A stretch of 64,000 nucleotides of DNA, taken from the sequence record NZ_CP072215.1; one strand, 5' to 3'. This document shows positions 4,011-50,453 of this stretch, one piece after another. Both the position numbers and the translations under genes were made by a program. Source of the stretch: a plasmid. The notes below the pieces were generated by a model, which was not told the DNA's origin, did not search any database, and saw only the letters and a program-made list of their open reading frames with translations. Numbering within the stretch: position 1 is the stretch's first letter; the number at the start of each line of letters is the position of its first letter.

Positions 4011-4125
4011 GTGTATCCTTTTCCCATGCCGGTCATACCGTTAGAACTGATTGATAAGTATGATGCGTATGTTGGCCGGTATGTCTATCTTTGTGGCAAT
4101 GAAAACAGAGAGAGGATTGATTTAC
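4011..4125. repeat. ~110-bp direct repeat, copy 1 (copy 2 at 20557..20668, ~90% identical)
   Basis: CCGGTCATACCGTTAGAACTGATTGATAAGTATGATGCGTATGTTGGCCGGTATGTCTATCTTTGTGGCAATGAAAACAGAGAGAGGATTGATTT seen at both loci. Contains a TAtcTTTG (-7-like) motif. Confidence 0.7.
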
Positions 4126-13324: not shown

Positions 13325-14200
13325 TCATTTTGTCAATCGTATTTTTTCGTGGTAGAAGTAGTTTACGATGACAGGTTTGCCTTTTTCCGAGCGTCCGTAT
13401 GGCAGATCGTTTATACGATACGGGAAGCCCTGCTCCTTGGCGTAATTTGAAATGTCCTGCTCCAATGCCTGCCAGTATTCAAGCCTTTTTTTATTGTAAA
13501 TTTCCTCGTAAAGCGGTATGAGGTCAGGATACTTCTCACGGATATACGTCATTATCCCGCCTTTGAACTGCCCGCGTAAATTCAGGTTTTCAAGCCAGAT
13601 TAAATCAGCATAATCTTTTACCTCCTCTATTATTGCCTTTACGTCTGTTATTCTGGGGAATATGGGCGAGACGAAGCATACGGTGCGGATACCTGCCTCG
13701 TATGTCTGACGCATCGCTTTCAGACGGCGTTCAATGCTTACGGCGTTGTCCATATCTGCGCAGAACTGCTCGTCGAGCGTATTGACAGACCATGACACAG
13801 TCACTTTGGGAAAACTCTTCAACAGGTCGAGATCGCGAAGGACAAGATCGGACTTTGTGCATATCATAATCTCGGCATCGCTTCCTCGCAGCTCTTCGAG
13901 CAGCCTTCGGGTACGGTGGAATTCTTCTTCATACGGATTGTAACCGTCCGTCACAGACCCTATTACAACACGTTCACCGTCGTATTTATGAGGATTCGTT
14001 ATCGGCTTCCAGTTTTTTACATCTAAAAACGTACCCCACGGCTCGGTGTGCCCGGTGAACCGTTTCATGAACGATGCGTAGCAATACCTGCAGGCGTGGG
14101 GACACCCTACATAAGGGTTGACCGAATATCCTCCCACCGGCAGAGAGGATTTGGTCATTACACTCTTTACATCTATTTCCTTTATTGTATCCATATTCAT
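13325..14200 (-). CDS. radical SAM protein, spore-photoproduct-lyase-like (SplB-like) family
   Basis: CxxxCxxC cluster GCPHACRYCY near the N-terminus; 291 aa. Confidence 0.8.
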   Translation of the reverse strand: MNMDTIKEIDVKSVMTKSSLPVGGYSVNPYVGCPHACRYCYASFMKRFTGHTEPWGTFLDVKNWKPITNPHKYDGERVVIGSVTDGYNPYEEEFHRTRRLLEELRGSDAEIMICTKSDLVLRDLDLLKSFPKVTVSWSVNTLDEQFCADMDNAVSIERRLKAMRQTYEAGIRTVCFVSPIFPRITDVKAIIEEVKDYADLIWLENLNLRGQFKGGIMTYIREKYPDLIPLYEEIYNKKRLEYWQALEQDISNYAKEQGFPYRINDLPYGRSEKGKPVIVNYFYHEKIRLTK

Positions 14201-14865
14201 TGTATTCGTCTGGTAAATTGTTCCGGCAATTCCTGAATCATTCTTTCGTCGCCCATAATCGGCAGCAAATCCTCTTTCATGAACACCGGTATGCCATGAG
14301 CCTTTGCCTGTTCTGCAATGCTAAGCACCCATTCGGGGCGCGAATATGACTTTCCTTTTCGGTTTCCGGTCTCTGTGCCTATGACAATCCAGTCAATTCC
14401 CTCGAAATCAATCTCGCCGATATCATCGAAGAGAGGTTCAAACGTGACATGGTAGTGTCGTGCTTTGATATTCTTTTTCAAATCATCAATCCTCCTTTTC
14501 TCGGAACTGCGCGTAACGGTCACGCCCATCCATACGTTCTCGTCGTCAGAGGAGAAACTGATTTTGTCAGGGCGCTTCGTCAGAAAGATATAGGCGTGCT
14601 GGGGATTGCTGCTGATCCGCTCGAAAATTTCTGCGTTCCATTCAGGCTTCCAATCGGAGAAATCGCTCATTCCTGTCATGAGCCACACATGAGGACGGGA
14701 CGTATCGATGATGCGCAGTTTTCGTTCCATGTATTCAGGCACGGAAAAGTCGTCGGTAATGTGGAAACGGCGGCAGTTGTTACGGGCATAGCAGTAAGGG
14801 CATCCTATAGTGCACCCTACCACTATGTTCATGTTTTTTATCAGGGATTTAATGCAGACACTCAT
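14197..14865 (-). CDS. DUF5131 / phage Gp37-Gp68 family protein
   Basis: Cys triad GCTIGCPYCY. 4-nt overlaps with both neighbours. Confidence 0.7.
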   Translation of the reverse strand: MSVCIKSLIKNMNIVVGCTIGCPYCYARNNCRRFHITDDFSVPEYMERKLRIIDTSRPHVWLMTGMSDFSDWKPEWNAEIFERISSNPQHAYIFLTKRPDKISFSSDDENVWMGVTVTRSSEKRRIDDLKKNIKARHYHVTFEPLFDDIGEIDFEGIDWIVIGTETGNRKGKSYSRPEWVLSIAEQAKAHGIPVFMKEDLLPIMGDERMIQELPEQFTRRIQ

Positions 14866-20556: not shown

Positions 20557-20668
20557 TCCTTTTCCCATACCGGTCATACCGTTAAAACTGATTGATAATT
20601 ATGACGCGTATGTTGGCCGGTATGCCTATCTTTGTGGCAATGAAAACAGAGAAAGGATTGATTTTGTA
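20557..20668. repeat. ~110-bp direct repeat, copy 2 (see 4011..4125); 5' region of the Rep-like gene
   Basis: ~90% identical to 4011..4125. Contains the TAtcTTTG motif ~45 bp upstream of the ATG at 20678. Confidence 0.7.
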
Positions 20669-24204: not shown

Positions 24205-24325
24205 TTGATATGCCGAAAAAAGGCTCAGAACTCAGATGGGGAATGACATCAAAAAAAAGGTCGGCTGACCAAAGACCTTCCCGATACAAAAAATGAAAAG
24301 GTCTTGAATCTAGCTGAAGAATAAA
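24205..24325. repeat. partial copy (3'-terminal ~120 bp) of repeat family A
   Basis: AAAAAAGGCTCAGAACTCAGATGGGGAATGA...GGTCTTGAATCTAGCTGAAGAATAA matches the 3' end of the 29973/33044/42146 elements. Ends 5 bp before the gene start. Confidence 0.6.
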
Positions 24326-24329
24326 TCAG

Positions 24330-24728
24330 ATGTTCAACTTAAATAATGCTAATATGGAAAATTTGATTACACAAATCAACAAAGAGAGATTGGTTAATAG
24401 CGACACAGCTCTTATGATGAAGGAATTATACTATTACGTGCCTTGTGAGTATTGGTATGACAAACAGGATAGGCTACGCACCGATATTGAGGGAAGGAAT
24501 ACCCCGATGTATATGTGCGAGTGCCCGACACTGGCAGCATGTATCCAATGGATGATACAGACTCGTGAATATACGTTTCAAACAGAACAAAACGTGGCGG
24601 TCTGGCATGTGGTTGTGAGGGCTGGAGATTATGTGTTGTATGACTCCGAAAGTAATGCGGACGCTTTTTGTTGTTTGGAAGAAGCATTGGAAAAAGCGGT
24701 ACAGGAGTGCATGGAGTTATTGTATTAA
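24330..24728 (+). CDS. hypothetical protein
   Basis: 132-aa ORF. Preceded by the family-A 3' fragment and followed by a strong terminator. Confidence 0.5.
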   Translation: MFNLNNANMENLITQINKERLVNSDTALMMKELYYYVPCEYWYDKQDRLRTDIEGRNTPMYMCECPTLAACIQWMIQTREYTFQTEQNVAVWHVVVRAGDYVLYDSESNADAFCCLEEALEKAVQECMELLY

Positions 24729-24840: not shown

Positions 24841-25437
24841 TTATTTGTTATTTTTGTTCTCGGATTTCAGCGCAATTCCATTCCTTCTTAATAGGCGATA
24901 TACTGTTCCGCTACTGCCTATGTTTAATATTTTCTGTATCTCCCTTACCGGCGTTCCGGATTCATAGAGTTGGATGCAGCTTTTCTGCTTGGCGATGTTG
25001 TTTTTGTTGATAAGTGTCTTTCTGCCGAATTTGACACCTTTTTCCTTGGCGATTCTTCTGCCTTCTTGGGTTCTCTCATAGATAAGGTCTCTTTCAAACT
25101 GAGCGAAAGCACCGAGAATGTTGTTCATCAGTTGGCCGATTGCGCCTTCCGTACTGATGTTGTCTTGCAGTGAGGTGAATTGGATGCCCCTATTCTTGAA
25201 ATCTTCCAATAGCGTAAGGATATTCTTCAGCGAACGGCCAAGCCGGTCCAGCTTATATACGACAAGTGTGTCGCCTTCCCGGAGAAAGCTCAGGCAGGCA
25301 TCCAGTTCCGGGCGGTTTTGTTGACGTCCGGTCATTTTCTCAGAGAAGATTTTCTCGCATCCGGCAGCCTTCAACGCTTCCAGTTGCATATCCAGATGTT
25401 GTTCCTTGGTGGAAACACGGGCATATCCTATTTTCAT
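24841..25437 (-). CDS. DNA invertase, Hin/Gin/Pin-type serine recombinase
   Basis: MKIGYARVSTKEQ (catalytic Ser), LDRLGRS motif, C-terminal Hin-like HTH (IGSSGTVYRLL); 198 aa. Confidence 0.9.
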   Translation of the reverse strand: MKIGYARVSTKEQHLDMQLEALKAAGCEKIFSEKMTGRQQNRPELDACLSFLREGDTLVVYKLDRLGRSLKNILTLLEDFKNRGIQFTSLQDNISTEGAIGQLMNNILGAFAQFERDLIYERTQEGRRIAKEKGVKFGRKTLINKNNIAKQKSCIQLYESGTPVREIQKILNIGSSGTVYRLLRRNGIALKSENKNNK

Positions 25438-29972: not shown

Positions 29973-30659
29973 TTTTGCGTTCACGCAGTATTCTTTCCCA
30001 CCCTCCCCTTCATCGGAATGACTGTTCTCATTTCCGGTTTACCCGTAGTCATCCGCTATGCGGCTGATTATGGGCAAACCAGAAAAGAGAAGTTCCAAAC
30101 GTGGGCGGGATTGCAATGGTCATCATCCGGAGCTTCGGCATTGCCGAAACAACCTCCTTCTTCCGTATTGCAGCCCCGTCCTTTTACCGTTTGTCCCGGC
30201 AGTCCGTTGCTAACCCGTTCCCCCCTGCCACTTGTGGCAGGGAGATAGGAATACGGTTTTGCAGGCAAAACCGTATGGCTTGTTTTACTTTCCGTACTGC
30301 CCTTTTCCTAGTTTTCTGCCTCCCTTAATGTGCGTTTTTCATAGCCCCATCTGAGACCCTTTGTTTTTGAACGGCAAATTTATTTCGGTGGATGGATACG
30401 AAAGAGTTCCGGTCTTCGCCCTTTGTCCCGAAAAAAATAACGCCGGACGGCTTCGCTGTCCCCAACATTTTTTGTCGTCCAAAACTTTTCTTAATCCCTC
30501 CTTCCTTATTGTTGTGTGCCGTAAAAAAAAGGCTCATAAACTCAGATGGGGCATGAAAGCTCAAAAAAAAAGTCGGCAGAAAGAAAAGGCCATCCCGGAA
30601 AGGGGTTTTAAAAAAAGGTCTTTAAATCTAGCTGAAGCATAAAATTAGAAGTTTAACAA
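29973..30659. repeat. repeat family A, copy 1: ~690-bp hairpin-rich non-coding element ending 20 bp before a gene start
   Basis: Near-identical to 33044..33711 and 42146..42833. Starts TTTGCGTTCACGCAGTATTCTTTCCCACCC, ends TCTAGCTGAAGCATAA(AATTAGAAGTTTAACAA). Confidence 0.85.
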
Positions 30660-30678
30660 TCCCAAAAAACAACGAGTT

Positions 30679-33043: not shown

Positions 33044-33711
33044 TTTGCGTTCACGCAGTATTCTTTCCCACCCTCCCCTTCATCGGAATGACTGTTCTCA
33101 TTCCCGGTTTACCCGTAATCATCCGCTATGCGGCTGATTATGGGTAAACCGGAAAAGAGAAGTTCCAAACGTGGGCGGGATTGCAATGGTCATCATCCGG
33201 AGCTTCGGCATTGCCGAAACAACCTCCTTCTTCCGTATTGCAGTCCCTTCCTTTTACCGTTTGTCCCGGCAGTCCGTTGCTAACCCGTTCCCCCCTGTCA
33301 CTTGTGGCAGGGAGATAGGAGTATGGTTTTGCTTGCAAAACCGTATGGCTTGTTTTACTTTCCGTACTGCCCTTTTCCTTGTTTTCTGCCTCCCCTAATG
33401 TGCTTTTTTCATAGCTCCATCTGAGAGCCTTTGTTTTTGAACGGCAAATTTATTTCGGTGGATGGATACGAAAGAGTTCCGGTCTTCGCCCTTTGTACCG
33501 AAAAAAATAACGCCGGACGGCTTCGCTGTCCCCAACATTTTTTGTCGTCCAAAACTTTTCTTAATCCCTCCTTCCTTATTGATGCGTGCCGTAAAAAAAA
33601 GGCTCATAAACTCAGATGGGGCATGAAAGCTCAAAAAAAAAGTCGGCAGAAAGAAAAGGCCATCCCGGAAAGGGGTTTAAAAAAAGGTCTTTAAATCTAG
33701 CTGAAGCATAA
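33044..33711. repeat. repeat family A, copy 2
   Basis: Near-identical to copy 1. Ends 26 bp before the ATG at 33737. Confidence 0.85.
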
Positions 33712-35054: not shown

Positions 35055-36418
35055 TTTTACTTAATTGTTTTACCTTTGTAAAACATTAGTGTCCCATTAA
35101 AATTGGGACGAATTAAAAATTAAATAAACTTGGCCCATTTGGTCCGAATCGTTCTTTGTCATTTTGAAATTTAGTTTTATCAAAGAGGTCTCTCAGATGA
35201 GTCTTATCAGTCAATGAGATGCTCAGTATTTGTAACACTTCATATGTACTTCTGTTCAGTTGCATATCGTGTTGAATGATTGCCACCAAACAGTAAGCGC
35301 ATATAGCAGCATATATCTGTATTCGAACAGCATTCTCTGTAGTTCCCCAAAATCTTTTGATTTTAAGGTGCTGCTTGAGCCATTTGAAAAACAGCTCTAC
35401 CTGCCAGCGATTTTTATAAAGTTCAGCAACTTGAAGCGCAGATATATGCATCGCATTGGTTATGAATGTAAATTCTCGTTCTTGTTCTTCATCCCAATAT
35501 TTAACCAATCTAAGTGGCTCTGGATAATATTGTTTAGGATAGAATCCTGTCAGAAATACACTTGCGTCTGAAAGCACATTCTTAGGCAGCCTACGTTTCC
35601 ATTGGATGGATTTGTACCCGAGATTCTTTTTTGCTCTGACAACAAAGTAGGCTTCAATTTGATGAATTTTATACAGTATTTTGAAGTTGTTATAACCGCG
35701 GTCAAAGATGTAATAAGAGCTTGGTTCATAAGGAATTTCAATCATAACTTTAGAATCGTGTACGGATGCTTCCGTGATATGAAAGAATGCAGGAATCTGT
35801 GTTTCCACATCATATAATGTATGCACTTTGATACCACCTTTCTTTTTGCGGAATTTTGCCCACCAAAAGACTGAAAGGCACAGGTCAATAGTAGTCGAAT
35901 CGAAAGCATAAACGTTACCGCCAAGTTTGAAAATATGATTAGCACACTTTTGTCGTGCTTCGCTAACCAGGTAGTAAGCATATTCTTCAAAGATGTGATA
36001 GTCTCTATCTTGATTTGCTCTTGCCAGCGATGACTTTGATACATTTTTACCCATTCCTAAATGATAACATTTGGAATGATGAGCTTCAAGAGCAACTATC
36101 AAATCTCGCAGACTTTCACGATTAGAAAGTTGACCAAACATCAAAGCAAGTAGTTGATTCCAGCAGGTGAAGTGCTTCACATATTTATCACCATCATACT
36201 TGGTGACTATGCGGTTAAACTTACTTCGATTCAGAAATGAAGCCAATTGAGCGAAAACGTATTTGTCTTGGAACATATGCCATCGGATTAATCTGATGCA
36301 AAGCTACAAATTCAAGTCCGTTCGCTCGGAAAATCGCTGTAACTAACTAAATTTCAAATATTTCAAAGAACTCTTTTAGATTTTAATGGGACAACAATGT
36401 TTGTAAAAGGTAAAACAA
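35055..36418. mobile_element. IS4-family insertion sequence (~1.36 kb) with ~38-bp imperfect terminal inverted repeats
   Basis: Left end TTGTTTTACCTTTGTAAAACATT-AGTGTCCCATTAAAAT; right end is its reverse complement with 3 mismatches. Single transposase ORF inside. Confidence 0.7.
35113..36276 (-). CDS. IS4-family DDE transposase
   Basis: 387 aa. Conserved C-terminal YKNRWQVELFFKWLKQHLKIK block. Confidence 0.85.
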   Translation of the reverse strand: MFQDKYVFAQLASFLNRSKFNRIVTKYDGDKYVKHFTCWNQLLALMFGQLSNRESLRDLIVALEAHHSKCYHLGMGKNVSKSSLARANQDRDYHIFEEYAYYLVSEARQKCANHIFKLGGNVYAFDSTTIDLCLSVFWWAKFRKKKGGIKVHTLYDVETQIPAFFHITEASVHDSKVMIEIPYEPSSYYIFDRGYNNFKILYKIHQIEAYFVVRAKKNLGYKSIQWKRRLPKNVLSDASVFLTGFYPKQYYPEPLRLVKYWDEEQEREFTFITNAMHISALQVAELYKNRWQVELFFKWLKQHLKIKRFWGTTENAVRIQIYAAICAYCLVAIIQHDMQLNRSTYEVLQILSISLTDKTHLRDLFDKTKFQNDKERFGPNGPSLFNF

Positions 36419-36712
36419 TATGCGTTTTTCAGATACAGAGAACAATATGACCTTTTGCATAGGTGTGTGTTGGTTAGGAACTCCAAATATGGAGTCGTTG
36501 CAGAAAATAATGATGAACTTGAATATTATTGATAAGGATGGAAACAATGGAAGCTAATGAACTGATGCGATATGCCTATGAATTACTGCAAGGGCATTCG
36601 AATGAAGAATGTGCCCGAATATTAAGAGAAGTGGTGGCCGAGTGTCAGGTGTGTATAAAGAACTGTGAAGAAGGTGTTTTCGAAAATATGCTAAAGTAAT
36701 AACAACAAGAAT

Positions 36713-37162
36713 ATGGAAATTACTCATAAAAATCAAGGAGAACTTGACTCAACCATGCTCCCATTCGTGATGAGAGAGCTGGTAGAACTGGTCATGAAGA
36801 AAAAGGCATTGCCTTTAGGCGATGCACTGTATTATATATATTCTTCCAAGTTGTATAAATCTTTGCTGGATAAGAGTACCAAGTTATGGTATTCAAGTAC
36901 ATTGTCGCTTTATGAAACATTGGAGAAGGAAAAAACAGAAGAAAAACGACGGTATAACGGTGACACGAAGATCCTGCTTTTCAAGATGTTCTGCATTGAG
37001 AATTATAGGGAGGAAAAGAAACAAAGTGCGGAAGAAACCTTGTTGTTGTTTTCGGACTATGGGGTTTTTGATTTTTTGGATGAGACTTTTGAAATGCTTC
37101 ATACCCAAGACCCCGAATATATATTAGATACTATAACGACTTATATCAATAAAAGAAAATGA
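36713..37162 (+). CDS. DUF3791-like protein
   Basis: 149-aa ORF. 4-nt overlap with the downstream gene, the known DUF3791/DUF3990 pairing. Confidence 0.45.
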   Translation: MEITHKNQGELDSTMLPFVMRELVELVMKKKALPLGDALYYIYSSKLYKSLLDKSTKLWYSSTLSLYETLEKEKTEEKRRYNGDTKILLFKMFCIENYREEKKQSAEETLLLFSDYGVFDFLDETFEMLHTQDPEYILDTITTYINKRK

Positions 37163-37641
37163 GACTATTTCATGGATCTACAGTTACCGTGAAACGCCCT
37201 AATATACAGAAAGGACGGAAGGCTACGGACTTTGGGAAGGGATTTTATACGACAACCAACTTTGAACAAGCAAAAAAATGGGCTTTGTTGAAGAAGAACA
37301 GGGAACAGAGCGAAAAAGCAATCGTCTCTGTTTATGAAGTTCCCGATGATATTCTTGATAGGGAATATCCGGTTCTTCGGTTTATGGGTGCAACAAAAGA
37401 ATGGCTGGAGTTTGTTGTCAACAACCGCAGAGGAAGAGAAAACGGTGACTATGACCTAATAATGGGGCCTGTCGCAAATGACCAGTTATATGCGACAATT
37501 CGGCTTTATGAACAGAGAGTTGTTACGGCTGAAGCCGCTATTGAGATGCTGAAAGCGCATAAGTTGTTCAATCAGCTTTCATTTCATACGGTAACAGTCG
37601 CTTTGTTGTTGAAGTTTGTTGAATCAATTGAAGTGGGGTAA
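37159..37641 (+). CDS. DUF3990-like protein
   Basis: MRLFHGSTVTVKRPNIQKGRKATDFGKGFYTT N-terminus typical of DUF3990. Confidence 0.5.
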   Translation: MRLFHGSTVTVKRPNIQKGRKATDFGKGFYTTTNFEQAKKWALLKKNREQSEKAIVSVYEVPDDILDREYPVLRFMGATKEWLEFVVNNRRGRENGDYDLIMGPVANDQLYATIRLYEQRVVTAEAAIEMLKAHKLFNQLSFHTVTVALLLKFVESIEVG

Positions 37642-37694
37642 AGAATATGTGAAGTGAAAATAGGGGGAAGTTTATCCCCCAATGGTAAGGTTGT

Positions 37695-38905
37695 TTTTTG
37701 CGTCCACTTAGTTTTTTCCCACCCACCCTTTCAGCGGAGTGACTGCCCGGCAGTCTGTTGCTTACCCATATGTCCTAGCCTTTTAGGGCTGTAGATAGGT
37801 AGTTGGATATTTCGCTGCCAAATCGGCAGTCCGCTTCAATCGTTTGCTTGCTTTTCTCCGAGTGGAGCCTTTCTGCTTTTCCGGTGGTGTAATCTTCTTT
37901 TATTGGAAACAGGTGTAGTGGCTGTATGCCTGTGTGGTTATGTTCTCCCGCAGAATCCGCAAGTCAGTTCTTCCGTTGCAGCTTTTCATTTTATCGTGCA
38001 GTCACTTTTTTCGATACGTGGAATATGATATGCTTCATTCTTCGGCTTCATTTTTTTAAAAGGAATTGCAGATGTTTCTTCCGGTGTGTCGATAGGCGGC
38101 TGACCATCTTTTCGGGATGTGCCATGCTTGCTGTCTAACCGGTTGTTTTTTGCATCCTTTCCAAACCTGTTACTGATTTTCAAGTTTTGTCTTTTTCATA
38201 TCATTTTTTAGGGAAGTCAAATCATTTTCCGTTGCAAATATAGATTGTTGCTAACCCCTTTTACGGGGATAAGGGGACGATTCACAAACACCACGTTGTT
38301 ATTCGTCTGAAATCTTCCTTTTTTTGCCTTGCACAAAAAGCGTATTTAACCCGAATTATTCGTTGCCATCTTCACCAATAAAAAAGTTACAAATCTTCCT
38401 TTTTCCGGCCAGCATAAAAAGAGTATTTATATCTTTTTTCATGGTGTCCCCCAAAGCCAACAATCAGTTATTGCACTGTAAAATTGATTAATTAACTTCT
38501 AAAAAATCAGAGATATGAAAAAGATTGAAAATTCATTCGCAGTAACAGGCAGGATTTGTAGGGATGCAGAAATCCATTTATTCGAAATAGTAAAGGTTGC
38601 ACACTTCTCTATTGTGGTCAGTCGCATAGGCAAGATAAATGAAGAAAAAACATTTGTTTCCTCTGTTATGAAAGTTGAAGCCTAGAGTAAGATGGAAGAC
38701 CGCTATGCTTTTTGGATACTGCAAAAAGATGTACTGATTACCGTTGAAGGCTACTTTAAGCCGGAAGAATGGACGGATTCTAAAAGTGGGGAGAAACGTA
38801 ACCGCATTGTGATGGTAGCTACTAAGTTCTACCCGACTCCGGAAAAATAAGAACCCCCGGACTAAAAAGAAAAAGCAATCAAACGATTGAAGCGGCACAA
38901 GGTCG
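37695..38905. repeat. segmental duplication, copy 1: family-B structured element + ssb-leader region + decayed ssb (deletion variant)
   Basis: Near-identical to 40735..42105 apart from an internal ~120-bp deletion and the decayed ssb. Confidence 0.75.
38520..38852 (+). pseudogene. ssb-like gene copy with in-frame stop and multiple substitutions
   Basis: Aligns with 41699..42097 but carries a TAG (GAAGCCTAGAGT) and divergent codons. Not present as an ORF in the track. Confidence 0.6.
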
Positions 38906-39019
38906 CTTCAATCGTTTGCTAATGCGGCAGAAGATTATAAAAAAAGTGTTTCTTAATTTGGTGATTTTCAGATTTATCGGTATTTTTGTATCAAAAATGA
39001 TACCTAAATATGTTTTTCT

Positions 39020-39358
39020 ATGAAAAGATTATATGATACATATACAATATACGAATTTTCAGATGAATGTATTGTAAAGGAAATCTGCAAGAGAGTTAAG
39101 TCTATAAGACTTAGCTGCTGTTTTTCCCAGCAAGAATTTGCGGATAAGGCAGGAGTATCTATCGTTACTATTAAGAGAATAGAATCTTGTAAAGTAAGTG
39201 ATATTGCCCTAAGTACATTGCTTAAGATTTTGCGTATAAGTGGAACTCTTGAAGGCGTTGTCGGTTTGGTTCCGGAACTTCCAGACTCCCCTTTCCTAAT
39301 CAATGAAAAAACAGGTAAAAGAATACAAAGAATTAACGGTAAACGTAAGATGGTATGA
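39020..39358 (+). CDS. hipB: HipB-like XRE-family HTH protein
   Basis: FSQQEFADKAGVSIVTIKRIESCK HTH. 4-nt overlap with the hipA-like gene. Confidence 0.6.
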   Translation: MKRLYDTYTIYEFSDECIVKEICKRVKSIRLSCCFSQQEFADKAGVSIVTIKRIESCKVSDIALSTLLKILRISGTLEGVVGLVPELPDSPFLINEKTGKRIQRINGKRKMV

Positions 39359-40632
39359 AGAAAGAGCCGATTATAGTGAATGTATATCTGTGGGGGACTT
39401 GCATTGGCAAATTGAATTGGGACTTTGAAAAGCATTGTTCTGTATTCCAATTTACGGATGAATATAGGAAACAAGATTATGATATATGCCCTTCCACACA
39501 CCCTAAGAGAACCCCTTTGTTTGCGTCTTTCTATGGGAATAAAGATAAATTATATCAAGGGCTTCCGGAATTTCTTGCAGATGCGCTTCCTGACAAATGG
39601 GGGGCTTCCCTATTTGACCAATGGCTCACGGATAATAATATAAAGGTTACGGAATCATTGCCTCTATTGAAGCTCTCTTATATTGGCAAGAGGGCTATGG
39701 GAGCATTGGAATTTGAACCGGAATTTAATGATGATGCCATCCATGAGTCAGTAAATATGTCATCATTGGCAACTTTGGCTTCTAAAATATATAATGATCG
39801 AGATGCTGCTGTCATATCACCGGAGGATAGCCTCACGATGAAAAAGTTGATATATCTTGGAACTTCTGCCGGTGGCATGCGCCCGAAGGCAGTGATTGCC
39901 TATAATCTCGAAACGGAAGAGTTTCGTTCCGGCCAGGTGGATTTGCCTGAAAATTTTAAGCAGTATATCATCAAATTTAAAGAAGCAGATGACTCTCCTA
40001 CCACAGAGATAGAAATGGTATATAGCGAAATGGCAAAGGCGGCGGGAATCAACATGATGCCATGCTTCCTGAAAGAAATTGATGGAAGAAATCATTTCGT
40101 AACGGAAAGATTTGATCGTAAGAATGGAGAAAAGCTCTTTAGTCAGACCCTTGCGGCCATTATGCCGGGTGCAGATGATTATATGAAGCTGTGTTGGATA
40201 GCAGAGACTCTGAAACTTCCCCAGGAAGACAAAGATCAGATATTTATCAGAATGGTATTTAATTATGTCGCAGGTATATCCGATGATCATAATAAGAACA
40301 TATCGTTTATCATGGATAAGGCAGGGGTATGGCGTTTATCACCTGCATATGATGTAATGTTCACGGCAAATACATGGGAAAATTCTTCAGCACACATTCA
40401 TTCGATGGGCGTGATGGGCAAAAGGTCTGCCTTGACTACAAGTGATTTCGTCAACTTTGCCGAGGATTTTGTAGAGGAGCCCGAAAAGAAGATATTACAG
40501 GTGTTCGATGCTGTAAGCAAATTTCAATCGTTATGCGCCACGTATGGCATAGATAAGGCTATATTTGATAAAATCCAACATGTATTGGATGGATTGGTCA
40601 CTGATGATTTGGATTTGCTGCAATTAACTTAA
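39355..40632 (+). CDS. hipA: HipA-family kinase toxin (second copy, canonical length)
   Basis: 425 aa. Catalytic loop ISDDHNKNISFIMD and TERFDRKNGEKL motif. ~40% identical to 382..1971. Confidence 0.8.
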   Translation: MKKEPIIVNVYLWGTCIGKLNWDFEKHCSVFQFTDEYRKQDYDICPSTHPKRTPLFASFYGNKDKLYQGLPEFLADALPDKWGASLFDQWLTDNNIKVTESLPLLKLSYIGKRAMGALEFEPEFNDDAIHESVNMSSLATLASKIYNDRDAAVISPEDSLTMKKLIYLGTSAGGMRPKAVIAYNLETEEFRSGQVDLPENFKQYIIKFKEADDSPTTEIEMVYSEMAKAAGINMMPCFLKEIDGRNHFVTERFDRKNGEKLFSQTLAAIMPGADDYMKLCWIAETLKLPQEDKDQIFIRMVFNYVAGISDDHNKNISFIMDKAGVWRLSPAYDVMFTANTWENSSAHIHSMGVMGKRSALTTSDFVNFAEDFVEEPEKKILQVFDAVSKFQSLCATYGIDKAIFDKIQHVLDGLVTDDLDLLQLT

Positions 40633-40734
40633 AGAACAGTAGATGGTGATAGTTGCTCCAGTCTTTTCTGGAACGGCTTTCTTTTCTTTTGAGATCTTTA
40701 TACCCCTATTTGTTATTTTGGAGAAAGTCACATG

Positions 40735-42105
40735 TTTCCCACCCACCCTTTCAGCGGAGTGACTGTCCCCGTTTCAGGATTTCTCATAGTCACTCGCAGG
40801 CTCCGTGATTGTGTGAAATCCAGGAATGGGGAAGGCAAAGGAGAGAGGCATATCCGGTCTGCTTTCGGAGCTTCGGCCACATCGAGACAACCTCTTTCCG
40901 GCGGCTATGCCACTCTCCTTTTATTTGCCCGGCAGTCTGTTGCTTACCCATATGCCCCAGCCTTTTAGGGCTGTATATAGGTAGTCGGATATTTCGCCGC
41001 TAAATCGGCAGTCCGCTTCAATCGTTTGCTTGCTTTTCTCCGAGTGGATGCCTTTCTGTTTTTCCGGTTGTATAATCTTCTTTTTCCGGAAACAGTTGTA
41101 GTGGCTGTATGCCTGTATGGTTATGTTCTCCCCGCAGAATCCGCAAGTCTGTTCTTCCGTTGCAGCCTTTCATTTTATCGTGCAGTCACTTTTTTCGATA
41201 CGTGGAATATTGTATGCTTCATTCTTCGGCTTCATTTTTTTAAAAGGAATTGCAGAGGTTTCTTCCGGTGTGTCGATAGGCGGCTGACCATATTTTCGGA
41301 ATGTGCCATGCTTGCTGTCTGACCGGTTGTTTTTTGCATCCTTTCCAAACCTGTTGCTGATTTTCAAGTTTTGTCTTTTTCATATCATTTTTTAGGGAAG
41401 TCAAATCATTTTCCGTTGCAAATATAGATTGTTGCTAACCCCTTTTACGGGGATAAGGGGACGATTCACAAACACCACGTTGTTATTCGTCTGAAATCTT
41501 CCTTTTTTTGCCTTGCATAAAAAGCGTATTTAACCCGAATTATTTGCTGCCATCTTCACCAATAAAAAAGTTACAAATCTTCCTTTTTCCGGCCAGCATA
41601 AAAAGAGTATTTATATCTTTTTTCATGGTGTCCCCCAAAGCCAACAATCAGTTATTGCACTGTAAAATTGATTAATTAACTTCTAAAAAATCAGAGATAT
41701 GAAAAAGATTGAAAATTCATTCGCAGTAACAGGTTTTATCGGTAAGGATGCAGAAATCCGTAGTTTTGAAACAGCAAGCGTAGCACGCTTTTCTATCGCG
41801 GTCAGCCGTGCAGACAAGACAGGTGAAGAAACCTCTTATGTTTCCGCTTTCATGGGGATTGAAGCCTGGAGAAAGAATGAAGCACTGGATTCCTTCGATG
41901 TATTGAAAAAAGGTGAGCTGATAACCGTTGAAGGCTACTTTAAGCCGGAAGAATGGACGGATTCTAAAAGTGGGGAGAAGCGTAACCGCATTGTGATGGT
42001 AGCCACCAAGTTTTATCCGGCTCCGGAAAAAGAAGAAGAAAAACCGGATCAGCCTAAACAGAAGGCTGTCTCTAAAAAGAAAAAAGCAAGCAAATGATTG
42101 AAGCG
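40735..42105. repeat. segmental duplication, copy 2: family-B element (full length) + leader + intact ssb
   Basis: See 37695..38905. Its family-B element retains a segment homologous to family A (GGAGCTTCGGCCACATCGAGACAACCTC). Confidence 0.75.
41699..42097 (+). CDS. ssb: single-stranded DNA-binding protein (OB-fold, conjugative-element type)
   Basis: FAVTGFIGKDAEIRSF...ARFSIAVSR...WRK...GELITVEGYFKPEEWTDSKSGEKRNRIV pattern and acidic/K-rich tail. Confidence 0.7.
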   Translation: MKKIENSFAVTGFIGKDAEIRSFETASVARFSIAVSRADKTGEETSYVSAFMGIEAWRKNEALDSFDVLKKGELITVEGYFKPEEWTDSKSGEKRNRIVMVATKFYPAPEKEEEKPDQPKQKAVSKKKKASK

Positions 42106-42145
42106 GCCTAGTGCCGCTTTTTTTTGCTACATATCCGAGAGTGTT

Positions 42146-42833
42146 TTTGCGTTCACGCAGTATTCTTCCCCACCCTCCCCTTCATCGGAATGACTGTTCT
42201 CATTCCCGGTTTGCCCGTAGTCATCCGCTATGCGGCTGATTATGGGCAAACCAGAAAAGAGAAGTTCCAAACGTGGGCGGGATTGCAATGGTCATCATCC
42301 GGAGCTTCGGCATTGCCGAAACAACCTCCTTCTTCCGTATTGCAGTTCCTTCCTTTTACCGTTTGTCCCGGCAGTCCGTTGCTAACCCGTTCCCCCCCTG
42401 TCACTTGTGGCAGGGAGATAGGAATACGGTTTTGCAAGCAAAACCGTATGGTTTGTTTTACTTTCCGTACTGCCCTTTTCCTTGTTTTCTGCCTCCCCTA
42501 ATGTGCTTTTTTCATAGCTCCATCTGAGATCCTTTGTTTTTGAACGGCAAATTTATTTCGGTGGATGGATACGAAAGAGTTCCGGTCTTCGCCCCTTTGT
42601 CCCGAAAAAAATAACGCCGGACGGCTTCGCTGTCCCCAACATTTTTTGTCGTCCAAAACTTTTCTTAATCCCTCCTTCCTTATTGTTGTGTGCCGTAAAA
42701 AAAAGGCTCATAAACTCAGATGGGGCATGAAAGCTCAAAAAAAAAGTCGGCAGAAAGAAAAGGCCATCCCGGAAAGGGGTTTTAAAAAAAGGTCTTTAAA
42801 TCTAGCTGAAGCATAAAATTAGAAGTTTAACAA
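42146..42833. repeat. repeat family A, copy 3
   Basis: Near-identical to copies 1 and 2. Ends 19 bp before the ATG at 42852. Confidence 0.85.
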
Positions 42834-42851
42834 ACTAAGTAGCAGAAGTAT

Positions 42852-48898: not shown

Positions 48899-49240
48899 TT
48901 ATTGGGGTTGTCCGGATGCCGTTCCGTCACCGCTCTCTTTTTTCTCTGCCTTTCCCAGTAACTCAATGCGTGAGACGGTCAGGCTGACGGATGGGATGTG
49001 GCTACCGTCATCCTTCTGGAATACATCGGCATACACATCGCCGCAGACATATACCTGTGTCCCTTTTTTCAGATACTCAAAGACTTTACTCTCGTAATTC
49101 ACGAAACAGCATACCCATAGGGTCTGTTCCTCGTTGTTCACGTTCTTGTACTTGGTGGATACATGGAAGTTGAATCCTTTTCCGTTCTTGTTCTGCCGGG
49201 CATCCGCACCGACATAACCGATAATTTGTCCTGTAAACAT
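48899..49240 (-). CDS. SSB-like OB-fold protein
   Basis: ORF from 49282; likely start MFTGQIIGYVGADA. Pattern LWVCCFVNYESKVFEYLKKGTQVYVCGDV typical of short SSBs. Confidence 0.6.
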   Translation of the reverse strand: MFTGQIIGYVGADARQNKNGKGFNFHVSTKYKNVNNEEQTLWVCCFVNYESKVFEYLKKGTQVYVCGDVYADVFQKDDGSHIPSVSLTVSRIELLGKAEKKESGDGTASGQPQ

Positions 49241-49259
49241 AATGATGGTTTTTAAAAGT

Positions 49260-50453
49260 TTATAATCCGAGCTGTGGCTCATTCATATTTTTCATGGCTG
49301 GCTCCGCTTCCATGGAAGGCAGCGAAATGCCGAAAGTGCTGTGTAGCGTTTCAAGGTTGTCGGCTGTAGGATGGTTTGCCGCAACACTTTCCAATAACCG
49401 TGATGAAGGGGTAAAACCTTCGTTTTTCATCTGCTCCAATACCGGACGGTTGTCTTGCAGGACGGCCTGCGTGAACCGTTCCTCCGGTGTGAGGTACTGT
49501 TCCATCCGTGCGGTATGTTCCTGAATCATATTGCTGGCTTTTCCTACATCGGCAAGGATGTTGTAGATGAATTTGGGATCTTCTTTCAAGGCTCCCAGCC
49601 AGTTTTTTAGATACATGGCATTTTCTTCCCGGATATGGGTGGATATTCCCAGGCTTTGCCCGACGGTAGCGGAGGTGAGTTCGGCAACCAGTTCCTCTTT
49701 GGCATATTGCTTGTCTCCGAAAATCACGCCTTTTTCCCGGTTCAGATGCTCAGGTTCTCCAGTCGAGTGCGCCATCTCATGCAGTAGTGTGGAGTAGAAA
49801 TTCTCTCCGTCCTTAAACTGCCCCTTCAGGGGTACGACGATATGGTTATCTTCTCCCCTTGCATGGTAAGCACTATTTCCTTCCTTGGAATAAATGGGGC
49901 AGATCCATTGCTGTTCCCGTACCATCGCATCAATCAGAGGCACGGTGAGCATCCCTTGCTCGTCCTTGATGGCCGGTATCTTGAATTGCTCCTTCAATGC
50001 TTCCCATTTCTCCGGTTTCGTTTCCTGAAGATTGGTCTGCTGTACGTTGAACACATTGTATGTCTTCAGAAACGGCGTGACCTTATATTCCTGCTGCTCG
50101 TTTTTATCCAGGTTCTTATATACGTCGAAAGGTATTTTCTTTCCGTTCTTGTCTCTTACTGAGAAATTCCAGTAAATGACTGGGAATGACTTTTCTCCTT
50201 TCAGTATGTTAAGGCCGTTGTCTTTGGCTTGCATGAAGGTCATATAGACCGGCAGGCTGTACTGCTCTTTTTCCGAAAGTAGAAACAACATGAAGGAATT
50301 TACTCCGTTGTAGGTTCTTCCCTCGATATTTTGCGGAAGTCCCCCACCCTTTATCCCGAACCAAGGCTTTTGCCAGTTGTCTTCCACCTGCTTTATCTTT
50401 TCGATCATCAGTTCGGCGAAACGCTGTAATGCTTTATCACTTGCTGTATCCAT
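49260..50453 (-). CDS. ardC: ArdC-like antirestriction protein (DUF1738 ssDNA-binding N-domain + zincin HExxH domain)
   Basis: WQKPWFGIKGGGLPQNIEGRTYNGVNSFML N-domain and LLHEMAHSTG metalloprotease motif. Confidence 0.8.
   Translation of the reverse strand: MDTASDKALQRFAELMIEKIKQVEDNWQKPWFGIKGGGLPQNIEGRTYNGVNSFMLFLLSEKEQYSLPVYMTFMQAKDNGLNILKGEKSFPVIYWNFSVRDKNGKKIPFDVYKNLDKNEQQEYKVTPFLKTYNVFNVQQTNLQETKPEKWEALKEQFKIPAIKDEQGMLTVPLIDAMVREQQWICPIYSKEGNSAYHARGEDNHIVVPLKGQFKDGENFYSTLLHEMAHSTGEPEHLNREKGVIFGDKQYAKEELVAELTSATVGQSLGISTHIREENAMYLKNWLGALKEDPKFIYNILADVGKASNMIQEHTARMEQYLTPEERFTQAVLQDNRPVLEQMKNEGFTPSSRLLESVAANHPTADNLETLHSTFGISLPSMEAEPAMKNMNEPQLGL

What the first reader, a model, noticed from the sequence alone, without database searches (positions are those of the whole stretch)
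37695..42105. ~1.3-kb segmental duplication (family-B element + ssb) flanking the second hipBA module, one copy decaying
Seen:
- 37695..38905 and 40735..42105 are near-identical.
- Copy 1 has an internal ~120-bp deletion inside the family-B element, and its ssb (38520..38852) has an in-frame TAG plus substitutions.
- Copy 2 is intact.
- The hipB/hipA pair (39020..40632) sits exactly between the two copies.
- Family B shares its 5' end (TTTCCCACCC...TTTCAGCGGAGTGACTG) and a central segment with family A.
- The ~330 bp upstream of ssb carries two ~45-bp direct repeats (AAATCTTCCTTTTTT..GCA.AAAAAG.GTATTTA).

Inference: hipBA was gained by recombination between repeated elements, or the duplication was generated around it. 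Having a decayed and an intact copy side by side gives a built-in control for which bases in the element are under constraint.
Basis: seen in the sequence. Interest (0 to 1): 0.6.

Follow-up and report, generated by a model that had tools for sequence, protein, structure and literature searches.

The report
Recombinant ssb cassettes flanking hipBA
The two ~1.3-kb repeats around a hipBA toxin-antitoxin pair are real, but they are two different versions of an ssb gene cassette brought together by recombination inside a Bacteroidales conjugative element, not a fresh duplicate decaying in place; each cassette starts with a conserved folded non-coding leader whose function is unknown.

Summary
The internal deletion is 162 nt, not ~120. 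The ssb cores are only 67% identical. The direct repeats are 39 nt.

The "family-B element" is composite. It contains a ~280-nt GC-rich structured leader shared with family A, a full-length inverted degenerate ssb, and a 300-nt spacer with the two direct repeats. ssb follows the spacer.

The same architecture occurs in independent metagenome assemblies, so it is not an artefact.

The two copies are different haplotypes:
- The 162-nt deletion removes exactly two hairpins inside a closing helix. The same short leader is the only leader in front of intact ssb genes in other elements.
- Copy 1 carries a distinct, common ssb allele that is intact elsewhere. Here it has two nonsense substitutions.

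Segment-by-segment comparison shows a mosaic built by homologous recombination and gene conversion between cassettes. hipBA has its own consensus promoter and always travels with an ssb 3' end.

The leader has no Rfam match. Its closest analogue is EGeRS1 of the pLS20 plasmid family, whose mechanism is also unknown. Whether it acts as RNA or as transferred single-stranded DNA is unresolved.

Overall this is an ordinary recombination story sitting on a possibly new structured element.

The parts
37695..37830 (+). Leader, copy 1, short variant: 5' flank resembling the start of family A, C-rich box TTTCCCACCCACCC, closing helix P1 capped directly (P2+P3 missing), hairpin P4
   Evidence: Covariance model R1 hit 37705-37841, 102.6 bits. 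The deletion equals 40766-40927 of copy 2. An identical short leader occurs in L007, L038, L070, L087 and L118, and a closely similar one in L035.
37831..38212 (-). Inverted degenerate ssb pseudogene, copy 1
   Evidence: 95.1% identical to the copy-2 segment, which aligns end to end with ssb in reverse orientation.
38213..38514 (+). Spacer between the head-to-head ssb copies, copy 1, with 39-nt direct repeats at 38310-38348 and 38391-38429
   Evidence: 99.0% to copy 2. About 50 nt next to each start codon are inverted copies of each other.
38515..38853 (+). ssb allele 1, inactivated: TGG>TAG at 38683-38685, GAA>TAA at 38848-38850, short-tail 3' end
   Evidence: Translation. Five differences from the intact L034 allele. 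Intact relatives P0001-P0003.
38854..39019 (+). ssb1-hipBA junction: 15-bp perfect palindrome (about 38876-38914) in place of the terminator seen in L034 and L001, then the hipBA promoter TTTG (38957-38960)-N20-TATTTTTG (38981-38988)
   Evidence: Sequence, comparison of junctions, promoter scan.
39020..39358 (+). hipB-like HTH antitoxin gene
   Evidence: Pfam HTH_3 E=9e-6. Overlaps the hipA start by 4 nt.
39355..40632 (+). hipA toxin kinase gene
   Evidence: Pfam HipA_C E=8e-41 and Couple_hipA E=1.5e-13. 35% identical to the other HipA in the window.
40633..40734 (+). 102-nt spacer between hipA and the next leader
   Evidence: Conserved length in all B-type hipBA loci. A different spacer precedes type-C leaders.
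40735..41012 (+). Leader, copy 2, full form: C-rich box, P1 closing a junction with long hairpins P2 and P3, then P4
   Evidence: R1 hit 40729-41023, 258 bits. Consensus structure and covariation.
41013..41396 (-). Inverted degenerate ssb pseudogene, copy 2 (from the ribosome-binding region and ATG at ~41383 to the 3' end at ~41010)
   Evidence: Local alignment with ssb scores 219, against 28 +/- 4 for shuffles. 31-nt inverted repeat with the ssb 3' end (I3). L113 is a recombinant across the two.
41397..41698 (+). Spacer, copy 2, with direct repeats at 41494-41532 and 41575-41613
41699..42097 (+). ssb allele 2, intact, long basic tail
   Evidence: Pfam SSB. An identical protein occurs in L087, L040, L027, L022, L012 and L006.
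42100..42125 (+). Intrinsic terminator of ssb2 (GCGGC-CTAGT-GCCGC + T8)
   Evidence: Sequence.
42141..42851 (+). Family A element, third copy (leader 42156-42463 plus 3' part), starting the PcfK-PcfJ cassette
   Evidence: 364.7 bits.

Best explanation
The window is a Bacteroidales integrative conjugative element. Between the relaxase end and the T4SS genes lies a co-oriented array of establishment and anti-defence-type cassettes: RadC, LPD28 + DNA methylase, YpsA/SLOG, DUF3791/DUF3990, ssb, hipBA and PcfK/PcfJ.

Several cassettes start, right after the previous terminator, with a ~280-300-nt GC-rich leader. The leader has a C-rich box and a closing helix around two long hairpins.

The finding is two ssb cassettes of different ancestry placed in tandem, with hipBA riding on the 3' side of the first.
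- Cassette 1: short leader, inverted ssb pseudogene, spacer, ssb allele 1.
- Cassette 2: full leader, inverted ssb pseudogene, spacer, ssb allele 2.

The arrangement arose by homologous recombination in the shared leader/ssb sequence between related elements. It was then partly homogenised by gene conversion. It did not arise by in-place duplication and decay.

The upstream ssb is redundant here and has picked up two stop codons. hipBA has its own promoter and most likely acts as an addiction or establishment toxin-antitoxin module.

Shown: the anatomy, the mosaic, the population variants and the conserved fold of the leader. Inferred: the recombination route, the redundancy, and what the leader does.
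For: Context: relaxase, T4CP, TraG/TraM/TraO, ArdC, PcfK/PcfJ, SSB, methylase.

Mosaic:
- Copy 1 37650-38070 is 100% identical to L038, which has no hipBA and one intact ssb.
- 38250-38490 is 100% identical to copy 2 but 78-92% to L038 and L034.
- 38550-38730 is 97-100% identical to allele 1 in L034, L065, L035 and L057, but 62-70% to allele 2.

The short leader precedes intact ssb genes in L038 and L118.

Allele 1 is intact in L034 and in clusters P0001 (315 members), P0002 and P0003. It differs from the window copy by TGG>TAG and GAA>TAA. The core has dS 0.65 and dN/dS 0.59; the flanks have dN/dS 0.06.

The TAG allele also sits at the downstream position in L035 and L057, so alleles move between positions.

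hipBA-less relatives with 98-100% protein identity have a single cassette (L022, L012). Tandem units hipBA-leader-ssb-hipBA exist in L101 and L017.

The ssb 3' end/terminator-hipBA junction is kept even where ssb is truncated (L001) or deleted (L027).

hipBA has a perfect Bacteroides -33/-7 promoter.
Against: - The order of events cannot be reconstructed. No haplotype with hipBA but without any neighbouring ssb remnant was found, so how hipBA first became linked to ssb is unknown.
- Several comparison contigs are low-coverage metagenome assemblies, and their frameshifts may be errors.
- dN/dS of 0.59 in the allele-1 core does not prove that allele 1 is functional.
- The window's element ends and nic site were not located, so 'establishment region' rests on gene content.
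Confidence: 0.75

Rival explanations
1. In-place tandem duplication of a leader + ssb segment around hipBA, followed by neutral decay of the upstream copy.
For: Two direct repeats flank hipBA. The upstream ssb has two stop codons, and its leader lacks 162 nt.
Against: - Divergence is concentrated in 189 nt of ssb (67%), while the adjacent non-coding 302 nt are 99% identical. Neutral decay would not do this.
- The divergent core and the short leader both exist alone and intact in other elements.
Confidence: 0.08
2. Assembly artefact (collapsed or expanded repeat).
For: Repeats of ~1.3 kb at 93-99% identity can mislead short-read assemblers.
Against: - The copies are distinguishable by a 162-nt indel, 33% divergence in the ssb core and different 3' ends.
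- The identical architecture was assembled independently in L087, L070 and L105 (left half also in L039 and L065).
Confidence: 0.02
3. The leader acts on the transferred single strand. If the + strand is the transferred strand, the folded leaders are priming sites (sso/ssi-like) or hairpin promoters. They would start complementary-strand synthesis cassette by cassette in the recipient, and so switch the establishment genes on early.
For: - The fold is conserved with 13 compensatory pairs.
- G.U outnumber A.C cells 449 to 48 on the + strand. The consensus fold has 54 pairs on + against 10 on -.
- The relaxase gene is on the - strand upstream of the array. By the usual rule that the relaxase gene enters last, the + strand would be transferred.
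- In the L122 family the folded part lies between a terminator and a consensus promoter, outside the gene's own transcript.
- ICEBs1 has an sso (PMC4595007).
Against: - The nic site and transferred strand are unknown.
- Single-sequence energies are equal on both strands.
- No -33/-7 promoter mimic was seen by eye in the P2 and P3 hairpin sequences of families A and B (not scanned computationally).
- The usual rule is an analogy from other MOB families.
Confidence: 0.35
4. The leader acts as RNA: a structured 5' leader or small RNA transcribed with the cassettes. It would control their expression, for example by transient post-transfer induction, antitermination across the cassette terminators, or stability.
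For: - The folding strand is the sense strand of all the cassettes.
- No consensus promoter lies between the leader and the start codons in families A and B, so the genes may be transcribed through the leader.
- In family A the fold ends in a hairpin plus U-rich tract.
- EGeRS1 regions in pLS20 are similar and regulate establishment genes (PMC8708921).
Against: - No promoter was found upstream of the leader.
- No Rfam family matches.
- In the L122 family a consensus promoter lies downstream of the fold.
- There are no expression data.
Confidence: 0.4

Closest known systems
EGeRS1 (establishment gene regulatory sequences) of pLS20-family conjugative plasmids of Bacillus (Val-Calvo et al. 2021, PMC8708921)
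   Same: - Several copies per element of a conserved, several-hundred-bp, non-coding region in front of establishment genes.
- GC well above the element's mean: 51.4 vs 37.7% there, 51-53 vs 40.6% here.
- Many inverted repeats predicted to form branched structures.
- Natural variants lacking or duplicating a block: 180 bp missing or 131 bp duplicated there, 162 nt missing here.
- No strong canonical promoter.
- The transferred strand is the non-template strand (shown there, inferred here).
- Mechanism unknown.
   Different: - Different phylum and conjugation type.
- EGeRS1 sits immediately upstream of the ribosome-binding site. Here the fold is 380-690 nt upstream of the start codon and is followed by other sequence: in family B an inverted ssb pseudogene, in family A an unassigned 3' part.
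Frpo/ssi single-stranded DNA promoters of F and ColIb-P9 leading regions (Masai & Arai 1997; Bates et al. 1999; Samuel et al. 2024, PMC11541004)
   Same: Repeated ~300-nt folded non-coding elements in one orientation in front of ssb, anti-restriction and toxin-antitoxin genes of a conjugative element.
   Different: - Frpo folds on the template (transferred) strand and rebuilds -35/-10 boxes.
- Here the fold leans to the sense strand and no -33/-7 mimic was found.
- The genes point away from the presumed oriT rather than towards it.
Single-strand origins (sso) of rolling-circle plasmids and ICEBs1 sso1 (Wright et al. 2015, PMC4595007)
   Same: Orientation-specific, highly folded non-coding DNA on the displaced or transferred strand. 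It would fit if the + strand is transferred.
   Different: - sso elements are usually single copy and not tied to cassette starts.
- No RSB/CS-6 motif test was done, and function is untested.
HipBA type II toxin-antitoxin modules
   Same: An HTH antitoxin gene overlaps a HipA kinase gene with the HipA N- and C-terminal domains. Toxin-antitoxin genes are common in plasmid leading regions (PMC11541004).
   Different: Only 35% identical to the other HipA of the same window. Activity is untested.
rAID-1 arrays and integron cassettes (Ross et al. 2019, doi 10.1101/471110)
   Same: Arrays of co-oriented cassettes in Bacteroidales mobile elements, separated by repetitive intergenic sequence. Cassette order differs between relatives.
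   Different: - No tyrosine recombinase or integrase lies next to the array.
- The repeats are 280-700 nt, not attC-like.
- The exchange seen here is explained by homologous recombination.

Membership tests
HipBA toxin-antitoxin | HipA kinase with HipA_C and N-terminal coupling domains | tested here: met
   Pfam HipA_C E=8.4e-41 and Couple_hipA E=1.5e-13.
HipBA toxin-antitoxin | Upstream, overlapping HTH antitoxin gene in one operon | tested here: met
   hipB 39020-39358 matches HTH_3 at E=9e-6 and overlaps hipA by 4 nt. A consensus promoter lies at 38957-38988.
HipBA toxin-antitoxin | Growth arrest by HipA that is neutralised by HipB | not testable with these tools
   Needs expression assays.
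SSB (OB-fold single-strand binding protein) | Intact ORF matching PF00436 | tested here: met
   Copy 2 matches at E=3.2e-13. Copy 1 is interrupted by TAG and ends early at TAA, so it does not meet the feature.
Frpo/ssi single-stranded DNA promoter | The fold is on the strand that is the template for the downstream genes | tested here: inconclusive
   G.U/A.C counts and consensus folding favour the sense strand. Energies are equal on both strands.
Frpo/ssi single-stranded DNA promoter | The hairpin rebuilds the promoter hexamers (here the Bacteroides -33 TTTG and -7 TAnnTTTG) | tested here: not met
   Checked by eye only: no such pair was seen in the P2 or P3 sequences of families A and B on either strand (sequences). 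The promoter scan on linear DNA finds none inside the fold.
Frpo/ssi single-stranded DNA promoter | Location in the leading region, with genes pointing towards oriT | tested here: not met
   With oriT next to the relaxase operon (17.6-19 kb, - strand), the array genes point away from it. The oriT itself was not mapped.
EGeRS1-type establishment gene regulatory sequence | Multiple conserved copies of several hundred bp in front of establishment genes | tested here: met
   Five copies in the window. Three to four copies per element in related and unrelated ICE families.
EGeRS1-type establishment gene regulatory sequence | GC content well above the element's mean, and many inverted repeats forming a branched fold | tested here: met
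   GC is 51-53% against 40.6%. 65-pair consensus with 97.8% of cells paired and 13 compensatory pairs.
EGeRS1-type establishment gene regulatory sequence | Sequence homology to pLS20 EGeRS1 | not tested
This is filed as 'works like', not as a member.
Any Rfam RNA family | Score at or above the gathering threshold | tested here: not met
   No hit in the whole window. Only chance hairpin-level hits at E<=1. The same holds for L122.
Integron-type cassette array | Adjacent integrase and attC-type recombination sites | tested here: not met
   No integrase was found among the array ORFs that were scanned; not every ORF was scanned. The only recombinase found is a serine resolvase at 24841-25437. The repeats are 280-700 nt.

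The most novel reading that the evidence does not exclude
The GC-rich leader is a previously undescribed class of single-strand structured element of Bacteroidales conjugative elements. It consists of a short palindrome, a C-rich box, and a closing helix around two long hairpins, and it opens the cassettes. It would be the counterpart of EGeRS1 and Frpo. It would time the expression or second-strand priming of establishment genes just after transfer, and it would also provide the portable homology that lets cassettes such as ssb and hipBA be shuffled, duplicated and lost.
Probability: 0.35. Interest if true: 0.7.

Novelty: new variant of a known kind. Interest (0 to 1): 0.42.

Why it matters
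The duplication itself is ordinary mobile-element mosaicism. It still gives a clear, population-level example of how establishment and anti-defence cassettes, including a toxin-antitoxin pair, are exchanged between gut Bacteroidales conjugative elements.

The more useful by-product is the leader. It is a conserved fold with no Rfam family. It recurs, in different sequence families, in front of cassettes in at least two further element families (L122, and the type-C leaders of L124). It also mirrors the unexplained EGeRS1 regions of Bacillus plasmids.

If its role were worked out, it would show how these very common gut elements switch on ssb, methylase and other early genes after transfer. The natural variants (full, minus 162 nt, 5'-truncated, type C) would serve as ready-made mutants.

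Tried and rejected
- **Rfam.** Searched at gathering and E-value thresholds. Only chance miRNA-like hairpin hits.
- **tRNA/tmRNA.** None in the window or in L121/L122, despite a GGTTCGATTCC motif in the L122 leader.
- **tblastn of SSB against the window.** It missed the inverted pseudogene. A DNA local alignment was needed.
- **Genome-collection scan with the 28-nt box pattern.** Only 6 loci, mostly mis-binned contigs.
- **Metagenome two-part pattern.** About half the loci returned were chance soil hits with no similarity.
- **MAFFT + RNAalifold on all unique A and B leaders.** Gave a poor consensus. The covariance-model alignment was used instead.
- **Strand test by minimum free energy.** No difference between strands, so the strand call rests only on G.U/A.C counts and consensus folding.
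- **Bacteroides -33/-7 promoter scan.** Only the hipBA promoter was convincing. No promoter was found for the leaders or for ssb.
- **Site-specific insertion or transposition of hipBA.** Considered and rejected: no terminal repeats, no transposase, and 1.3-kb 'target duplications' are not plausible.
- **oriT or attC identity for the leader.** Considered and rejected for lack of the defining features.
- **Literature searches** for a described Bacteroides equivalent found none.

Full report
**1. Observation**

The window between 37.7 and 42.1 kb holds two direct repeats around a hipB/hipA pair. Identity by segment is:
- 31/31 in the 5' box
- 92.9% over the rest of the leader
- 95.1% over the next 384 nt
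- 99.0% over the 302 nt before ssb
- 97% in ssb nt 1-36
- only 67.2% in ssb nt 37-225
- 93.7% in ssb nt 226-336

Copy 1 lacks 162 nt (40766-40927 of copy 2), not ~120. Its ssb has TAG at 38683-38685 and also ends early at a TAA at 38848-38850. The two direct repeats upstream of ssb are 39 nt long and 81 nt apart.

Families A (three copies) and B (two copies) share the box and about 230 nt at 69% identity.

The repeat is not an artefact. The copies are easily told apart. The same two-cassette architecture was assembled independently in metagenome contigs L087 (essentially identical, differing in the ssb1 lesions), L070 and L105; L039 and L065 share its left half.

**2. Context**

The window is a Bacteroidales integrative conjugative element.
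- A MobB-like relaxase and an MbpA-like accessory gene lie at 17.6-18.9 kb on the minus strand, followed by IS1380 fragments.
- The coupling protein, ArdC, a second SSB and the TraG/TraM/TraO-type transfer genes lie at 45-62 kb on the minus strand.
- Between them, from ~22 to 44.7 kb, most of the identified genes are on the plus strand (a resolvase, a RhuM-like gene, two small ORFs and the IS4 transposase are on the minus strand). They have the content typical of establishment and anti-defence islands: RadC, a PemK toxin, LPD28 with a DNA methylase, YpsA/SLOG, DUF3791/DUF3990, ssb, hipBA and PcfK/PcfJ.

Samuel et al. report the same gene classes, including toxin-antitoxin genes, in plasmid leading regions (PMC11541004).

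**3. What 'family B' really is**

The reverse complement of 41006-41400 aligns end to end with ssb, from the ribosome-binding region to the 3' end. The score is 219, against 28 +/- 4 for shuffles.

So the 'element' has three parts:
- a ~280-nt structured leader (40735-41012)
- an inverted, degenerate ssb (41013-41396, minus strand)
- a 300-nt spacer

In the spacer, the ~50 nt next to each start codon are inverted copies of one another. Between them lie the two direct repeats.

Contig L113 is a recombinant between ssb and the inverted pseudogene. In L027 the whole quasi-palindrome has been deleted, leaving leader-terminator remnant-hipBA.

**4. The leader**

A covariance model built from A and B copies finds exactly the five known copies in the window and 63 full-length copies in related loci.

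The consensus, 5' to 3', is:
- an unpaired C-rich box (TTYCCCACCCWCCC)
- helix P1, closing a junction with two long hairpins (P2, P3)
- a conserved linker
- hairpin P4

Across 57 distinct sequences, 97.8% of cells pair, against 41-53% when partners are slid. Thirteen pairs carry compensatory changes, mostly between A and B.

GC is 51-53% against 40.6% for the array. No Rfam family matches.

The 162-nt deletion of copy 1 removes exactly P2 and P3. It leaves P1 capped by a short loop.

*Which strand folds.* On the plus strand G.U cells outnumber A.C cells 449 to 48. The consensus fold has 54 pairs on plus against 10 on minus. However, single-sequence energies are the same on both strands, and family A P2 has two C.A mismatches that would be G.U on the minus strand. 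I take this as a lean towards the plus (sense) strand, not as proof.

**5. The two copies are different haplotypes**

Window-by-window identity shows:
- Copy 1 from 37650 to 38070 is 100% identical to L038. That element has DUF3990, the short leader, one intact ssb and no hipBA.
- From 38250 to 38490 copy 1 is 100% identical to copy 2, but only 78-92% to L038 and L034.
- From 38550 to 38730 copy 1 is 97-100% identical to the 'allele 1' ssb of L034, L065, L035 and L057, and 62-70% to 'allele 2'.

The short leader also precedes the intact 132-aa ssb of L118; in L035 it precedes a TAG-bearing ssb1.

Allele 1 is intact in L034. It is represented by protein clusters with 315, 104 and 30 member sequences. 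The window copy differs from L034 at five positions, two of which create the stops.

Between alleles, the core has dS 0.65 and dN/dS 0.59. The flanks have dN/dS 0.06.

The TAG variant also occurs at the downstream position, with the long tail, in L035 and L057. This shows exchange between positions.

**6. Relatives with and without hipBA**

| Locus | Arrangement |
|---|---|
| L022, L012 (98-100% protein identity to the window) | YpsA - 5'-truncated leader - inverted pseudogene - ssb2 - family A - PcfK; no hipBA |
| L101, L017 | hipBA - leader - ssb - hipBA |
| L001 | YpsA joined to the last 135 nt of allele 1, then hipBA and a full leader |
| L092, L034 | the same ssb - hipBA - leader order, with a third 'type C' leader |

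The junction between the ssb 3' end/terminator and hipBA is conserved in all of them. hipBA therefore moved as part of an ssb-linked unit.

hipBA has a perfect Bacteroides promoter, TTTG-N20-TATTTTTG.

In the window the ssb1 terminator has been turned into a perfect 15-bp palindrome.

**7. Explanation**

The locus is best read as two ssb cassettes of different ancestry. They were joined by homologous recombination in shared leader/ssb sequence and then partly homogenised. hipBA rides behind the first cassette. The redundant upstream ssb was recently knocked out.

In-place duplication with decay does not fit the pattern of divergence. Nor does it fit the existence of each 'decayed' feature alone and intact elsewhere.

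**8. Generality and closest known**

Other Bacteroidales element families show the same design.
- L122 has four ~580-nt leaders at 2-kb spacing. Each follows a terminator, has a C-rich box and a closing helix around two hairpins, and is followed by a consensus promoter. The locus also has two ssb genes.
- L124 has three type-C leaders, two ssb genes and a permuted cassette order.
- L127 has hipBA next to ssb on the opposite strand.

The nearest published analogue is EGeRS1 of pLS20-family plasmids. These are 400-600-bp, GC-rich, inverted-repeat-rich regions before establishment operons. They have natural block deletions and duplications, no strong promoter, a non-template transferred strand and an unknown mechanism (PMC8708921).

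Frpo-type promoters, sso elements and integron or rAID-1 cassettes share some features but fail defining tests here.

**9. Verdict**

The duplication is ordinary. The leader is the part worth following up. Its mode of action, as RNA or as transferred single strand, remains open.

Noticed in passing
L122:1367-7952 (also L120, L121, L123): A distantly related element family (SSB 58% identical) has four ~580-nt non-coding leaders at ~2-kb spacing. Each sits between an intrinsic terminator and a perfect Bacteroides promoter, and has the same box + closing helix + two hairpins design. The locus also has two ssb genes. The leader contains GGTTCGATTCC, but no tRNA/tmRNA or Rfam hit.
   Followed up: partly
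L113:1523-1817: ssb nt 1-138 is fused at the shared GAAGAAACCTC patch to the reverse complement of the inverted ssb pseudogene. This is an inversion-type recombinant between the head-to-head copies.
   Followed up: partly
L027:4860-5290: The whole quasi-palindrome (inverted pseudogene - spacer - ssb) is missing. A B-type leader is left joined to a terminator remnant and hipBA. This looks like palindrome-mediated deletion.
   Followed up: partly
L007:1-5576 (junction equivalent to window 38029): In an IMG/VR contig that is 100% identical to window 35288-38029, the sequence switches at 38029 into a block of three tyrosine recombinase genes, the nearest one truncated. This is either another mobile element inserted into the inverted ssb pseudogene or a chimeric contig.
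   Followed up: no
window 35064-36419: IS4-family insertion sequence (DDE transposase 35113-36276, minus strand) with 40-nt terminal inverted repeats. It is absent from L022, L012, L027 and L001, and present in L038, L070, L087 and L118.
   Followed up: partly
window 38876-38914: The ssb1 terminator seen in L034 and L001 (GCGGC-N5-GCCGC + T-run) is replaced here by a perfect 15-bp palindrome, CAAACGATTGAAGCG/CGCTTCAATCGTTTG. This may be a template-switch correction of a quasi-palindrome, or conversion from the leader's 3' end.
   Followed up: no
window 42548-42555, 33445-33452, 30375-30382 (minus strand): Each family A 3' part carries a perfect -7 box, TAAATTTG, on the minus strand, with a weak -33 (TTTC at spacing 17). 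It points back into the leader. An antisense transcript is possible.
   Followed up: no
window 24216-24338; 30519-30660; 33589-33711; 42693-42833: A ~110-130-nt module (AACTCAGATGGGG...GGTCTTNAATCTAGCTGAAG) directly precedes the start codons of four different cassettes, including one (o24330) that has no leader.
   Followed up: no
window 4016-4123 and 20557-20664: A 108-nt direct repeat at 94% identity, 16.5 kb apart. It brackets the fimbrial, ParA, radical-SAM and relaxase region. It may mark the ends of an inserted segment.
   Followed up: no
window 13325-14865 (minus strand): A 'radical SAM mobile pair' A and B (TIGR04471 and TIGR04470, E about 1e-137 and 1e-182) lies next to a metal-dependent hydrolase.
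   Followed up: no
window 48899-49282 (minus strand): A third, divergent SSB-family gene (Pfam SSB E=1.5e-7) lies between ArdC and the coupling protein gene. The element therefore keeps an ssb outside the cassette array.
   Followed up: no
L124:8001-12781 and L125, L126: A related backbone (same YpsA, Toprim and T4CP end) has the cassettes in a different order and two ssb genes 4 kb apart. Three type-C leaders begin with TTGCGTWCACGCAG and a CCCACC box.
   Followed up: partly
L127:8001-10800: In another element family hipBA again sits beside ssb and PcfK/PcfJ, but on the opposite strand. The association of hipBA with this region is therefore recurrent.
   Followed up: no
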